Source of the DNA: Candidatus Baldrarchaeota archaeon
Lineage (GTDB): Archaea > Asgardarchaeota > Baldrarchaeia > Baldrarchaeales > DXJG01
NCBI GenBank assembly: GCA_019056805.1
Contig: DXJG01000004.1
Span: 90,001 to 122,000 of the forward strand
Length of the DNA: 32,000 nucleotides
Direction of reading: 5' to 3'
Under the pieces are notes generated by a model, which saw only the letters and a program-made list of their open reading frames with translations, made no database searches and was not told where the DNA came from. Below are positions 10,280 to 12,769 of this stretch, one piece after another. A program made the position numbers and the translations under genes. Position 1 is the stretch's first letter; the number at the start of each line of letters is the position of its first letter.

Positions 10280-10417
10280 TAGTCCTTAACCTCCAAGGTT
10301 CGTTTAGTAAATAATAAGAGTAGTAAGAAGCGAATATTTAAATTTTAAGTTCGAATTTATAGAAATAATAGCAAAATATAAAGTTAAAAATTGTAATTTA
10401 AGATGCATATTAGCACT

Positions 10418-10593
10418 TTATTTTGTGTTTTGAAGAAGTTCTTGAGCTAATACTTTAAATGCTACATTTACATTTTCGCCAGTCTTTGCAGAAGTATCTA
10501 TAGGAAGATCGCAACGCATCTAATTCAGAAATATGTCATTTAGCTCTTATCGAACTATTGTGGTCATGGTTTGTTGGTTAGTTTATTTCCTAC
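10418..10593 (-). pseudogene. Remnant of a Rab/Ras-like small GTPase (G4 and G5 motifs only)
   Basis: 10519-10418 translates MRCDLPIDTSAKTGENVNVAFKVLAQELLQNTK*, i.e. G5 (SAK-TGENV--AF) plus helix 5. VGNK (G4-like) at 10593-10582 is in another frame, 95 nt upstream of the Ser codon, with stops in between. Confidence 0.7.
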
Positions 10594-10668
10594 ATTTTTA
10601 AGCGAAGCAAATAGTATAACGGTAAAAAAATGCAAAAATGCTTTGTGAATACTAAAAGAGTCAAAGAG

Positions 10669-11451
10669 TTACGTTAAAAATTTTCTGGGGTTTCTTAGCA
10701 GCCAGGCTTCGCCTTTATCAGGCTTGTACGACCATTCTCCCTTTTTTATAAGTTTAATTCTCTTTTTTATTCTTTCTTTAATGTCATTATGATACTTTAT
10801 TGTTGAAGCAAATAGTACGAGCGCTCTAGATATAATATAGCTCTTAGCTAGATCTTCATCGTAAATATTTATTTCAACTTTTCCACCGATATTAAGCTTC
10901 TTACTATCAATAAATGCAACTTTTTTCTTAGTTGGACCGTAGTAGACGTCCCAATCGCTACCAATTGTTAGTCTATTTTCATCAATTTTAAACACGCTCA
11001 TTGGTTCTTCTTCTTTCTCCGATAAATAGGTGAAAACATAAACTTCGCCAAAACCATGTCTTCTATGAACTTTTTCGATCCAAAGGACATAATCATAGTT
11101 TGGTATTGTTGCTACAAATACAGGTATTACATCGTTTGAGCCTATACTATTCTTAAGCTCTTCAACAACGATTTCTTCAATGCTTCCAAGCCATCCACCT
11201 TCGTCTGTAAAAAGCCTCACAACAAGTCTTCCATTGAGTTCGTCGCCATCTTCACCTTTCCATGACTTTTCACGTATAGCTACAAAACCTTTACCTTTAT
11301 CATCTTCTATATACTTTCCAAAAATATCCATGTCCATTGTGAAATGTCTACTTTTCGACCTATACTGTTCTTTCTGTCTAATGCCTATTTCCTCGCCATG
11401 TAAACCTGTTTTCCAAAAGTCAATGACAAATTTCTTAATTGGTTTAACCAT
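10669..11451 (-). CDS. Hypothetical protein, probable Tubby/LURP-one/scramblase-like beta-barrel
   Basis: 260 aa, SD GGAGGT, strand-rich. The C-terminal half (SDWDVYYGPTKKKVAFIDSKKLNIGGKVEINIYDEDLAKSYIISRALVLFASTI) follows the LURP-one pattern ending in a hydrophobic core helix. The CDS is secure; the fold is inferred. Confidence 0.55.
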   Translation of the reverse strand: MVKPIKKFVIDFWKTGLHGEEIGIRQKEQYRSKSRHFTMDMDIFGKYIEDDKGKGFVAIREKSWKGEDGDELNGRLVVRLFTDEGGWLGSIEEIVVEELKNSIGSNDVIPVFVATIPNYDYVLWIEKVHRRHGFGEVYVFTYLSEKEEEPMSVFKIDENRLTIGSDWDVYYGPTKKKVAFIDSKKLNIGGKVEINIYDEDLAKSYIISRALVLFASTIKYHNDIKERIKKRIKLIKKGEWSYKPDKGEAWLLRNPRKFLT

Positions 11452-11533: not shown

Positions 11534-12118
11534 TTATTCTACATAGGGTAAGTTTTTCAAAGCTTCTTTTAAATCGTCAACAGCTTGTTCAATAGGTTGA
11601 ACCATAGAAGATAGCATTGCTAGAGTTGATGCATCATAGCCTCCCATTGTTGATAATATGTTAACTTCGTTCTTTAATTTCTCTAAGCTTTTAAGGACAG
11701 CTCCAAATCTAAGTAATATGATTTTCGATAAAGCTTGTCTATTTGCGAGTCTAACTTTGCCTTGGAGAATAACATTCCTCACATCTAGCTTTTTGATAGC
11801 GTTTTGCTCAAGTAGGGGCAGCGAGTTATTAATTAATTCAGTTAAGGCATAACTTAGTTCCAAGTCGTCACTATCTGTTGAAGCAATAAGCATGAAAATG
11901 TAATTATTAATAACTTCAAAAAACATTTTAAAAGATGTAGTTTGGATACGTTGAATTTTTTCTGACATATCAGGAGACAACATAGATGAGATTTTTGCTA
12001 TTGCTGCTGCAAATTCAGATGTATATTCTTCATCGGGTTGATAATTGCTATTAGGATTCTTATAGTGATATACCATTGATCGAGTCTTCATATCTACAAT
12101 ATAATACTCTAATATCAT
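11534..12118 (-). CDS. Longin-like (profilin-fold) domain protein with C-terminal coiled-coil hairpin
   Basis: MILEYYIVDMKTRSMVYHY (b1-b2), FAAAIAKISSML (a1), IQRIQTTSFKMFFEVINNYIFMLIAS (b3-b5), LELSYALTELIN (a2) gives the longin bb-a-bbb-a order. C-terminal heptads. Start set at ATG 12118 after GGTGG. Confidence 0.65.
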   Translation of the reverse strand: MILEYYIVDMKTRSMVYHYKNPNSNYQPDEEYTSEFAAAIAKISSMLSPDMSEKIQRIQTTSFKMFFEVINNYIFMLIASTDSDDLELSYALTELINNSLPLLEQNAIKKLDVRNVILQGKVRLANRQALSKIILLRFGAVLKSLEKLKNEVNILSTMGGYDASTLAMLSSMVQPIEQAVDDLKEALKNLPYVE

Positions 12119-12208: not shown

Positions 12209-12769
12209 TTAGATGCTACTAGCTATTTTTCTTGATAAAGATTTTTCATCTTCCAATACAAGCTTTCTTTCTAATATTAATTCAACTATTCTTTCAAAGG
12301 GTTTCTCTACATTCACCATATTTAAAGCTGAAGTTTCAATATAATCGTCGATACGTTGCTCCATCAAAAATTTTCTAATATCTTCCCTTGAAACACTTTT
12401 CGGTAAATCCGCTTTTGTACCTATAAGCACAATTGGTATATCAGGTACATTATGCATTCTAACGAGTTCAAGCCAGTTTTCTATCGCCAAAAAAGTATCA
12501 TAAGAGGACAAGTCAAAAGCTAATAACACGCCATCTGCTCCTTTTACAGCGTAAGGATTTTCCCGGTGCATTTGCAAAAAGTTTCTACATCCTCCGAAAT
12601 CCCATATAACAAGTTTACAAGCAGCATCATTCATTTTCATAAAGTATGTAGTGAAATCTAACCCAACTGTAATATTACAGTTCATAAACTGTTTATATTT
12701 AAATGCCCTTAAAAGCGTTGTTTTACCAATTCCAGTCTCACCAACTAACAGAACTTTGAACAATTCCAT
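12209..12769 (-). CDS. Ras-superfamily small GTPase (Rab-like, divergent)
   Basis: G1 GETGIGKT, G2 TVGLDF, G3 WDFGG, G4 GTKAD, G5 ETSAL. No C-terminal Cys. SD GGTGA 6 nt before the ATG. Confidence 0.92.
   Translation of the reverse strand: MELFKVLLVGETGIGKTTLLRAFKYKQFMNCNITVGLDFTTYFMKMNDAACKLVIWDFGGCRNFLQMHRENPYAVKGADGVLLAFDLSSYDTFLAIENWLELVRMHNVPDIPIVLIGTKADLPKSVSREDIRKFLMEQRIDDYIETSALNMVNVEKPFERIVELILERKLVLEDEKSLSRKIASSI

What the first reader, a model, noticed from the sequence alone, without database searches (positions are those of the whole stretch)
12209..12769. Mosaic small GTPase lacking the catalytic glutamine
Seen: G3 is WDFGG-C (Cys codon 12587-12589) where Ras/Rab have DxxG-Q; switch I is Rab-like (TVGLDF); G4 GTKAD and G5 SAL resemble Rho (GTKxD, SAL) but there is no Rho insert (G4 Thr to G5 Ser is 29 residues); DFGG resembles Roc domains; switch II is about 3 residues longer than in Rab; no prenylation Cys. 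Established: loss of the switch II Gln slows hydrolysis unless a GAP supplies the residue in trans. Inference: a constitutively GTP-bound, partner-dependent or possibly redox-sensitive switch sitting between eukaryotic subfamilies.
Basis: partly seen in the sequence, partly recalled or inferred. Interest (0 to 1): 0.6.

Follow-up and report, generated by a model that had tools for sequence, protein, structure and literature searches.

The report
Gln-less Asgard small GTPase beside longin
A real small Ras/Rab-like GTPase gene of an uncultured Asgard archaeon (Baldrarchaeia) has lost the water-positioning glutamine in all its orthologues (Cys or Tyr instead) and sits next to a longin-fold protein, so it is probably a slow or partner-dependent switch, not a hybrid of eukaryotic GTPase families.

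Summary
Observation confirmed. ORF 12209-12769 (-) encodes a 186-aa small GTPase (Pfam Ras 2.5e-31). G1, the switch I Thr, DxxG, G4 Lys/Asp and G5 are intact. Cys (TGT, 12587-12589) stands where Ras/Rab have the catalytic Gln, and switch II is 3 residues longer than in Rabs.

It is not an error. All orthologues with that region (59-88% identity, some labelled Baldrarchaeia) carry Cys or Tyr, never Gln, and dN/dS is 0.13-0.25.

The 'mosaic between eukaryotic subfamilies' reading is not supported. WDFGG and GTKxD are ordinary in the nearest archaeal-type relatives, which keep Gln. Trees put the clade on the archaeal-type side. Its sister is a Gln-bearing GTPase that shares the switch II insert and is followed by a Roadblock/LC7 gene.

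The downstream neighbour here is a longin-fold domain plus helical hairpin, and the next gene has a Tubby/LURP-one-like fold.

A redox role for Cys61 is unlikely, because Cys alternates with Tyr.

Best reading (inferred, not measured): it binds GTP, hydrolyses poorly by itself, and depends on a partner, most plausibly the longin neighbour. Binding could not be tested.

Among 400 Asgard genomes, WDFGG-Cys/Tyr GTPases occur only in this genus. It is a new variant of a known kind, of moderate interest.

The parts
12209..12769 (-). Small GTPase gene (186 aa, P0001), Ras superfamily, Rab-like by overall similarity, lacking the switch II Gln
   Evidence: ORF. Pfam Ras 2.5e-31. Best PDB matches are Rab25, Rab11 and Rab35. 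Orthologues are 59-88% identical. dN/dS is 0.13-0.25.
12719..12742 (-). G1 / P-loop GETGIGKT (residues 10-17)
   Evidence: Read from the sequence. The GxxGxGKT core is kept in all orthologues.
12668..12679 (-). Switch I core: invariant Cys31 (12677-12679) to the Mg-binding Thr34 (12668-12670), followed by VGLDF
   Evidence: C31, T34, V35, G36, L37, D38 and F39 are invariant in 13 orthologues.
12587..12604 (-). G3 WDFGG plus residue 61. Cys codon TGT at 12587-12589 stands where Ras/Rab have the catalytic Gln
   Evidence: Orthologues have Cys (TGT/TGC) or Tyr (TAC) and none has Gln.
12533..12586 (-). Extended switle II (residues 62-79), 3 residues longer than in Rabs and most Asgard relatives; N63, F64, E70 and V75 are invariant
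   Evidence: Alignments; conservation. The insert is shared with the Gln-bearing sister P0090.
12407..12421 (-). G4 GTKAD (residues 117-121). The usual Asn is Thr here and Met or Leu in orthologues; Lys and Asp are invariant
12323..12334 (-). G5 TSAL (residues 146-149)
   Evidence: the beta6 + G5 stretch (residues 141-150) is invariant at 8 of 10 positions among orthologues.
11534..12118 (-). Downstream neighbour (194 aa from Met8 of the ORF; P0065): longin-fold domain (about 1-105) plus a long helical hairpin. Candidate regulator or effector platform
   Evidence: The AF2 model has pLDDT 80.7 and topology bb-a-bbb-a + 2 helices. Foldseek hits are COPI zeta, AP sigma, Sec22b, TRAPP and LAMTOR. 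VIA Z: 11.8 synbindin, 11.1 MglC, 10.9 Sec22b, 9.5 MglB. It is 88-96% identical among relatives. It is adjacent to the GTPase in the three fetched Baldrarchaeia loci and in G002.
10669..11451 (-). Third co-oriented gene (260 aa): Tubby / LURP-one-like barrel with a central C-terminal helix. Its link to the GTPase is weak
   Evidence: AF2 pLDDT is 86. VIA Z is 9.5 to At5g01750 and to Tubby-PIP2, and the next hit is 6.2. More distant homologues are not next to a GTPase or longin gene.
10421..10507 (-). Relic (G5 + helix 5) of a second, canonical GTPase. In relatives that gene follows a KaiC/GvpD-like ATPase at this position
   Evidence: tblastn gives 66-69% identity over 29 aa to the second GTPases of L001-L003.

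Best explanation
This is a functional small GTPase of the Asgard 'Rab-like' kind. It belongs to a lineage-specific subfamily so far seen in one Baldrarchaeia genus and its metagenomic relatives. The subfamily first gained a 3-residue longer switch II, a state still seen in a Gln-bearing sister that is paired with a Roadblock/LC7 gene. It then replaced the water-positioning Gln with Cys, and one sub-branch changed that Cys to Tyr. All nucleotide- and Mg-binding elements are kept, so the protein should still bind GTP. Without the Gln it should hydrolyse GTP only slowly by itself (inference from Ras Gln61 biochemistry). It would therefore stay GTP-bound for long periods, and it would be switched off, or read out, through a partner. 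The most plausible partner is the conserved downstream protein with a longin-fold domain and a helical hairpin, by analogy with Roadblock/longin platforms such as MglB, TRAPP, Ragulator and Mon1-Ccz1. Shown here: gene reality, loss of Gln across the clade, purifying selection, the fold of the neighbour, and the phylogenetic position. Inferred: GTP binding, slow hydrolysis, and the identity and role of the partner.
For: The gene is real and the domain is a small GTPase. Gln is absent in every orthologue (Cys or Tyr). G1, Thr34, DxxG, Lys119, Asp121 and the G5 Ser-Ala are conserved. Selection is purifying, with dN/dS 0.13-0.25 against 0.01-0.06 for the two neighbours. Among 73 G3 motifs of unbiased nearest single-domain representatives, the residue is Q 55, E 11, L 2, K 2, H 1, G 1, P 1, with no C or Y. 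Among 400 Asgard genomes, WDFGG-C/Y inside a GTPase occurs only in G000 and G002. The clade is monophyletic (SH-like/SH-aLRT 97). Its sister is P0090 (support 98, 88 and 96 in the three trees), which keeps Gln, shares the insert and is followed by a Robl_LC7 gene. The neighbour has a longin/roadblock-superfamily fold whose best structural matches are small-GTPase platforms. GTPase-longin adjacency is seen in L001-L003 and G002. Established knowledge: substitutions of Ras Gln61 lower intrinsic and GAP-stimulated hydrolysis. Rap (Thr61) relies on an Asn supplied by RapGAP. TBC RabGAPs supply a Gln in trans. Rab25, the best PDB hit, itself has Leu at this site.
Against: No biochemical or binding evidence exists for any step after 'binds GTP'. 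The whole ~10 kb region is syntenic among these close relatives, unrelated genes included, so adjacency within the genus is weak evidence of functional linkage. Homologues of the longin-hairpin protein in other Asgard lineages have no GTPase within about 1.5 kb. Intergenic gaps of about 80-90 nt, with a TATA-like box before the longin gene, allow separate transcription. The longin domain lacks the GP motif reported for GAP-type longins (direct reading against PMC12290439). The GTPase evolves 3-5 times faster than its neighbours, which could mean relaxed constraint rather than partner co-evolution.
Confidence: 0.55

Rival explanations
1. It is a non-cycling, constitutively GTP-bound adaptor, like the Rnd or RhoH 'pseudo-switches'. 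No GAP acts on it. It is controlled by its abundance or by its partners, and GTP serves only as a structural cofactor.
For: Gln is lost across the whole clade. The first G4 position is loosely constrained (Thr, Met or Leu), which could raise spontaneous exchange. The protein evolves faster than its neighbours. Established knowledge: Rnd1-3 and RhoH lack the catalytic residues and do not cycle.
Against: Switch I and parts of switch II (N63, F64, E70, V75) are strongly conserved, as expected if nucleotide-dependent conformations still matter. The sister GTPase is paired with a Roadblock/MglB-like gene, which suggests a regulated cycle in the ancestor.
Confidence: 0.22
2. Hydrolysis is normal because another residue in cis takes over. 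Candidates are invariant Asn63 or Glu70 in the extended switch II, or Tyr/Cys61 itself. On this reading the missing Gln has no kinetic consequence.
For: The 3-residue switch II insert predates the loss of Gln. N63 and E70 are invariant. About a quarter of the nearest relatives also lack Gln, mostly carrying Glu, so the family tolerates alternatives. Established knowledge: HAS-GTPases and Rheb do not use the canonical Gln.
Against: Cys and Tyr have little in common chemically as water-positioning groups. No structure or model of this GTPase was made here to show that N63 or E70 can reach the gamma-phosphate.
Confidence: 0.12
3. Cys61 is a redox sensor that couples thiol oxidation to the nucleotide state.
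For: Cys61 would lie next to the gamma-phosphate. Cys31 in switch I is invariant and Cys51 is nearly so, so thiols are present near the active site.
Against: Residue 61 is Tyr in a whole sub-branch of orthologues (P0005, P0008-P0011, their cluster members, and G002), through a single G-to-A change. A thiol at 61 is therefore not required.
Confidence: 0.05
4. It is an evolutionary intermediate or mosaic between the eukaryotic Rab, Rho and Roc subfamilies.
For: Individual motifs resemble different eukaryotic families: TVGLDF and KLVIW are Rab-like, GTKxD resembles Rac/Rho (recalled from memory, not tested here), and DFGG is Roc-like with Pfam Roc 5e-18.
Against: The same motifs occur together in many Gln-bearing archaeal-type relatives. 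The trees place the clade away from the Cys-tailed, eukaryote-like Rabs, while the genome's other paralogues lie closer to them. On a reduced set, forcing it together with that side costs 102 lnL units, p-AU 0.0007. That group was named after seeing the tree and may be confounded by nested rows.
Confidence: 0.04
5. It is a sequencing error, a strain-specific mutation or a decaying pseudogene.
For: None beyond the unusual residue. The adjacent second GTPase of this locus has indeed decayed.
Against: The same loss is seen in independent assemblies from several sources. The frame is intact and dN/dS is well below 1.
Confidence: 0.01

Closest known systems
Asgard 'Rab-like' small GTPases (e.g. Thor-Rab; Tran et al. 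2024, PMC10933270)
   Same: It is a single G domain of about 170-190 aa with no prenylation Cys. It is Rab-like by overall similarity (best PDB hits are Rab25, Rab11 and Rab35). The WD[FL]GG and G[NT]KxD motifs are shared with many relatives.
   Different: The catalytic Gln is replaced by Cys or Tyr, switch II is 3 residues longer, and there is a basic C-terminal tail. It sits directly upstream of a longin-fold gene, whereas the paper reports that MK-D1 GTPase genes are generally not in operons with roadblock or longin genes.
Sister GTPase P0090/P0248 with a Roadblock/LC7 neighbour (MglA-MglB-like gene pair)
   Same: It is 43% identical to P0001 over the full length, has the same switch II length and GTKAD in G4, and a roadblock-superfamily gene lies immediately downstream.
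   Different: The sister keeps Gln (FDFSGQ). Its neighbour is a 135-aa Robl_LC7 protein, not a longin-hairpin protein, and the two neighbours show no detectable sequence similarity.
Eukaryotic Gln-less Ras-superfamily members: Rab25 (Leu), Rap1 (Thr61, with RapGAP supplying Asn in trans), Rnd/RhoE (Ser)
   Same: The G domain is intact and a non-Gln residue stands at the Ras-61 position. Rab25 is the top PDB match, and its Leu aligns with Cys61.
   Different: The loss is independent and archaeal. Cys or Tyr was not seen among the 73 G3 motifs of the nearest representatives. There is no lipid-modification motif, and no RapGAP or TBC-type partner has been identified.
Longin/roadblock platforms for small GTPases (TRAPPC4/synbindin, MglB/MglC, LAMTOR2, Mon1-Ccz1, Fuzzy-Inturned)
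   Same: The neighbour's N-terminal domain superposes on these with Z 9-12 and rmsd 2.6-3.2 A over about 100-117 residues.
   Different: There is no sequence-level family match in Pfam or NCBIfam. It carries an added C-terminal helical hairpin. It lacks the GP motif of FLCN/SMCR8/NPRL2-type GAP longins (and direct reading). Binding to the GTPase has not been shown.

Membership tests
Ras superfamily small GTPase (Pfam PF00071 / TIGR00231) | A significant match to the G-domain profile over its full length | tested here: met
   PF00071: E 2.5e-31, 108.9 bits against a cut-off of 21.6, profile positions 1-161 of 162. TIGR00231: 67.7 bits against 42.5.
Ras superfamily small GTPase (Pfam PF00071 / TIGR00231) | G1 GxxxxGK[ST], switch I Thr, G3 DxxG, G4 [NT]KxD and G5 SA-x are all present | tested here: met
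   GETGIGKT, T34, DFGG, TKAD and SAL are read directly from the sequence and are conserved in orthologues. The first G4 residue is Thr, Met or Leu, not Asn.
Ras superfamily small GTPase (Pfam PF00071 / TIGR00231) | A catalytic Gln directly after DxxG | tested here: not met
   Cys61 here and Cys or Tyr in all orthologues. This feature is typical of the superfamily but is not required for membership; Rap, Rnd and Rab25 also lack it.
Bona fide Rab family (eukaryotic) | RabF1-F5 motifs (IGVDF, KLQIW, RFrsiT, YYRGA, LVYDIT) | tested here: inconclusive
   By direct reading, the motifs being recalled from memory: VGLDF and KLVIW fit RabF1 and RabF2. NFLQMH does not fit RabF3. YAVKGA and LLAFDLS fit RabF4 and RabF5 only partly.
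Bona fide Rab family (eukaryotic) | C-terminal Cys motif for geranylgeranylation | tested here: not met
   The tail ends ...SRKIASSI and has no Cys, and the same is true of all orthologues.
Bona fide Rab family (eukaryotic) | Phylogenetic placement inside the Rab clade | tested here: not met
   It lies on the opposite side of a 98/99-supported split from the Cys-tailed, eukaryote-like sequences. The library sequences carry no names, so 'eukaryote-like' is inferred from their Cys tails.
Rho family | A Rho insert helix between G4 and G5 | tested here: not met
   Only 29 residues separate Thr118 from Ser147. No Rho protein is among the best 60 PDB hits.
Roc (ROCO) domain | A Roc G domain followed by a COR domain in one polypeptide | tested here: not met
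   The protein is 186 aa with a single domain. The Pfam Roc match (5e-18) is weaker than the Ras match and covers only residues 5-121.
MglA-MglB-type GTPase / roadblock pair | A GTPase gene immediately followed by a Roadblock/LC7-superfamily gene | tested here: met
   The neighbour has a longin/roadblock-superfamily fold. The sister GTPase has a true PF03259 neighbour.
MglA-MglB-type GTPase / roadblock pair | Physical binding, and GAP or GEF action of the partner on the GTPase | not testable with these tools
   No tool here measures binding or catalysis. This needs biochemistry.
Longin-domain GAPs (FLCN, NPRL2, SMCR8 type) | A GP motif in the beta1-beta2 region together with an Arg finger (PMC12290439) | tested here: not met
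   The beta1-loop-beta2 stretch reads ILEYYIVDMKTRSMVYHYKN and has no GP. An invariant Arg13 lies in the loop, but whether it corresponds to an Arg finger is unknown.

The most novel reading that the evidence does not exclude
The Gln-less GTPase and the longin-hairpin protein form an archaeal switch with catalysis in trans. The longin platform would supply or position the missing catalytic group, for example through invariant Arg13 in its beta1-beta2 loop. It could act together with the Tubby-like lipid-binding protein at the membrane. That would be a prokaryotic forerunner of the eukaryotic longin GAP/GEF logic, in a natural gene-linked pair that can be reconstituted.
Probability: 0.15. Interest if true: 0.75.

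Novelty: new variant of a known kind. Interest (0 to 1): 0.42.

Why it matters
Asgard archaea carry dozens of small GTPases and longin or roadblock proteins. Which regulator serves which GTPase is largely unknown, because the genes are usually unlinked (PMC10933270). This locus offers two related, gene-linked pairs: a Gln-bearing GTPase with a Roadblock gene, and a Gln-less GTPase with a longin-hairpin gene. Together they form a natural before-and-after experiment on how a small GTPase can give up its own catalytic residue. They also give a tractable test of whether archaeal longin-fold proteins act as GAPs, GEFs or effectors. If the GTPase simply turns out to be slow, the result is ordinary, since Gln-less small GTPases are well known in eukaryotes.

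Tried and rejected
- Complex prediction of the GTPase (A1) with the longin neighbour (A2) gave 'no answer': score 0.00 against a mark of 0.32, and the controls were not run. This counts neither for nor against binding.
- Profile comparison of the longin-hairpin family with the sister's Roadblock neighbour showed no similarity (probability 0.2%). The query profile is very shallow (Neff about 1), so this is uninformative.
- The Atlas feature search for the longin protein gave only sub-threshold leads (0.89 or lower). These were Asgard hypothetical proteins and one Roadblock/Fuz_longin cluster.
- The sigma-70 promoter and terminator scan is not applicable to archaea and gave counts at the chance level.
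- The full AU test on 102 rows was killed by the sandbox. A reduced test ran, but its group was named after seeing the tree.
- Foldseek found no PDB match for the 260-aa protein at E <= 0.001. The wider VIA search then found Tubby and LURP-one.
- A pattern scan for WDFGG[C/Y] gave 5 extra hits in other Asgard genomes. None lies in a GTPase, and 5 hits of the control pattern show this is the chance level. GTPases with another G3 context (for example WDLGG-C) would have been missed.
- No structure model of the GTPase itself was made, because both prediction jobs went to the neighbours.

Full report
**1. What is in the sequence**

The minus-strand ORF 12209..12769 encodes a 186-aa protein, P0001. 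An AAGGTGA ribosome-binding site lies 7 nt upstream of the ATG.

The protein matches Pfam Ras over the whole profile (E 2.5e-31). It also matches Roc (5e-18), Arf (3e-12) and TIGR00231.

Against solved structures the best 60 of 907 matches are all Rabs, led by Rab25, Rab11 and Rab35 (98-90 bits).

- G1 is GETGIGKT.
- Switch I is NCNITVGLDF, with Thr34.
- G3 is WDFGG, followed by Cys61 (TGT at 12587-12589).
- G4 is GTKAD and G5 is TSAL.
- There is no C-terminal Cys, and no room for a Rho insert.

In the HMMER alignments Cys61 lies opposite Rab11 Gln and Rab25 Leu. The Rab switch II needs three gap positions.

**2. The loss of Gln is inherited, not an error**

A word-indexed search of 5.8 billion proteins found eleven orthologue clusters at 59-88% identity. 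Two are labelled Candidatus Baldrarchaeia.

In the ten that cover G3, residue 61 is either Cys or Tyr and never Gln:
- Cys: P0003, P0004, P0006, P0007, P0012.
- Tyr: P0005, P0008-P0011.

Fourteen further cluster members and the same-genus genome G002 agree.

The codons are TGT/TGC and TAC, so one transition separates the two states. On the tree the Tyr forms make one sub-branch.

The G1 core (Gly10, Gly13, Gly15-Lys16-Thr17), Thr34-VGLDF, WDFGG, Lys119, Asp121 and the G5 Ser-Ala are conserved.

Pairwise dN/dS for the GTPase is 0.13-0.25. dS is near saturation, so the values are rough. The two downstream genes give 0.01-0.06.

The gene is therefore under purifying selection, but it evolves several times faster than its neighbours.

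**3. How unusual the residue is**

An exhaustive HMMER search of 1.84 billion cluster representatives gave 33,715 hits. Nothing closer than 44% identity fell outside the gene's own cluster.

Among the 73 G3 motifs found in the single-domain representatives of the top 150, the residue after DxxG is Q 55, E 11, L 2, K 2, H 1, G 1 and P 1. None is C or Y. Non-Gln is thus common, at about a quarter, but Cys and Tyr are not.

In the window's own genome (1.92 Mb, 91% complete) the other seven Ras-like paralogues carry Gln, except one with His (WDIAGH).

A DNA pattern for WDFGG[C/Y] was scanned over 400 Asgard species genomes. It hit a GTPase only in G000 and G002. The five other hits are not GTPases and match the control rate.

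No orthologue above about 40% identity exists in five other Asgard genomes, including the other family of the class.

**4. It is not a mosaic of eukaryotic families**

WDFGG-Q is the dominant form among the word-indexed relatives. That search favours shared words. In the unbiased set, DFGG and DLGG together are still as frequent as DTAG among sequences without a Cys tail.

GTKxD is shared with the distant relatives P0014-P0022 and with P0090.

Two trees of 102 sequences were built, one with FastTree and one with IQ-TREE LG+C20 PMSF in quick mode. They agree on three points:
- The orthologues form one clade (support 97).
- P0090 is their sister (support 98 and 88; 96 on a reduced set).
- A 98/99-supported split separates this side from a 41-row side.

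The 41-row side holds 21 of the 22 Cys-tailed, eukaryote-like sequences, all the other paralogues of this genome, and the second GTPase of the related loci. The side with the clade holds archaeal-type sequences, only one of which has a Cys tail.

On a reduced set, forcing the clade onto the eukaryote-like side costs 102 log-likelihood units (p-AU 0.0007). That group was defined after seeing the tree, and nested unlabelled rows may inflate the cost, so I count it as weak support only.

The library sequences carry no names. 'Eukaryote-like' is inferred from their Cys tails.

**5. The sister gives the history**

P0090/P0248 is 43% identical to P0001 with no gap in switch II, so it shares the 3-residue insert. 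It has GTKAD and keeps Gln, as FDFSGQ.

In two independent contigs it is followed, 62 nt downstream, by a 135-aa PF03259 Roadblock/LC7 gene. That gene has a faint MglB match.

So the longer switch II and the pairing with a roadblock-superfamily gene probably came before the loss of Gln.

**6. The neighbours**

*The longin-hairpin protein.* The downstream gene (11534-12118, 194 aa from Met8; P0065) has no Pfam or NCBIfam match. It is nevertheless 88-96% identical among relatives.

Its AF2 model has pLDDT 80.7, although only one of the five models is confident. The model shows a bb-a-bbb-a longin topology followed by two long helices.

Structural matches are:
- Foldseek: COPI zeta/delta, AP sigma, Sec22b, TRAPP and LAMTOR, at E 3e-5 to 1e-3.
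- VIA-align: synbindin Z 11.8, MglC 11.1, Sec22b 10.9, Fuzzy/Inturned-RSG1 10.2 and MglB 9.5. All 50 listed hits belong to the longin/roadblock superfamily.

It lacks the GP motif reported for GAP-type longins (PMC12290439). Arg13 in the beta1-beta2 loop is invariant.

*The Tubby-like protein.* The next gene (10669-11451, 260 aa) models with pLDDT 86. It matches At5g01750 (LURP-one) and Tubby-PIP2 at Z 9.5, and the next hit scores 6.2.

*Gene order.* In three Baldrarchaeia contigs the order is: flavin reductase, radical SAM, Gln-less GTPase, longin-hairpin, Tubby-like, KaiC/GvpD-like ATPase, canonical WDLAGQ GTPase, small proteins, PmbA/TldD.

In this window the ATPase is gone from that position. 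Only a 29-codon relic of the canonical GTPase remains, at about 10421-10507.

**7. How strong the functional link is**

The whole region is syntenic among these close relatives, so adjacency alone is weak evidence.

- Longin-hairpin homologues exist in other Asgard lineages (G005, genus g65 5/5, genus g24 12/15). No GTPase lies within about 1.5 kb of them.
- More distant Tubby-like homologues are not linked to a GTPase or a longin gene.

The case for the longin protein as partner rests on three things: adjacency wherever the orthologue exists, the parallel GTPase-Roadblock pair of the sister, and the established role of this fold as a small-GTPase platform.

**8. Mechanism**

By established Ras, Rap and Rab biochemistry, removing the switch II Gln lowers intrinsic hydrolysis. 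Inactivation then depends on residues supplied or positioned by a partner. Examples are the Asn of RapGAP, the Gln of TBC domains, and the way MglB repositions MglA residues.

My best reading, at 0.55, is a GTP-binding, intrinsically slow, partner-dependent switch that works with the longin-hairpin protein.

The rival readings and their weights are:
- A non-cycling adaptor of the Rnd type (0.22).
- A substitute catalytic residue in cis within the extended switch II, such as invariant N63 or E70 (0.12).
- Redox sensing by Cys61 (0.05). It is disfavoured by the Cys/Tyr alternation, although Cys31 in switch I is invariant.
- A mosaic between eukaryotic families (0.04).
- An error or pseudogene (0.01).

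**9. Verdict**

The evolutionary framing as a mosaic between eukaryotic families is not supported. The functional inference is reasonable but untested.

This is a new variant of a known kind, and of moderate interest. The main reason for interest is that it provides a gene-linked GTPase and longin-fold pair in Asgard archaea, plus a Gln-bearing, Roadblock-linked sister for comparison.

Noticed in passing
window 10421-10507 (-), within the gap 10280-10668: This is a relic of a second small GTPase (G5 TSAK plus helix 5), 66-69% identical over 29 aa to the canonical WDLAGQ GTPase that follows a KaiC/GvpD-like ATPase in L001-L003. In this genome the ATPase and most of that GTPase have been deleted from the locus.
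   Followed up: partly
window 11534-12118 (-): The longin-hairpin protein is 88-96% identical among relatives whose GTPase is only 59-88% identical (dN/dS 0.01-0.05). Its layout of a longin domain plus two long helices recalls longin SNAREs, but no TM segment or SNARE motif was tested.
   Followed up: partly
window 10669-11451 (-): This 260-aa protein has a Tubby/LURP-one-like barrel around a central helix (Z 9.5 to 2q4m and 1i7e). Homologues occur in Helarchaeota and other Baldrarchaeia without the GTPase or longin neighbours.
   Followed up: partly
G000:C9:490568-491059 (+), outside the window: Another small GTPase paralogue of this genome has His instead of Gln after DxxG (WDIAGH).
   Followed up: no
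window 12677-12679 (-) = Cys31; 12617-12619 (-) = Cys51: Cys31 lies in switch I, three residues before the Mg-binding Thr, and is invariant in all 13 orthologues compared. Cys51 is kept in 12 of 13. If any thiol chemistry matters here, Cys31 is a better candidate than Cys61.
   Followed up: no
window 12209-12265 (-), C-terminal tail: The tail of P0001 lacks about 10 residues that are present in its closest orthologue P0003 (…SRKI-ASSI against …SRKIRLIASNETSTSELP). Orthologue tails are poorly conserved but carry basic clusters such as RKRTK and PRKIKF.
   Followed up: no
L006:5001-5956 and L007:726-1681: The Gln-bearing sister GTPase and its Roadblock/LC7 neighbour lie beside a block of replication genes: a Hel308-like helicase, MCM and a GINS subunit.
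   Followed up: no
G4 position of orthologues (window 12416-12418 equivalent): The first G4 residue varies: Thr (P0001, P0003), Met (most orthologues) or Leu (G002), where Asn is usual. The Lys and Asp are invariant. This may imply weaker base contacts and faster exchange.
   Followed up: no
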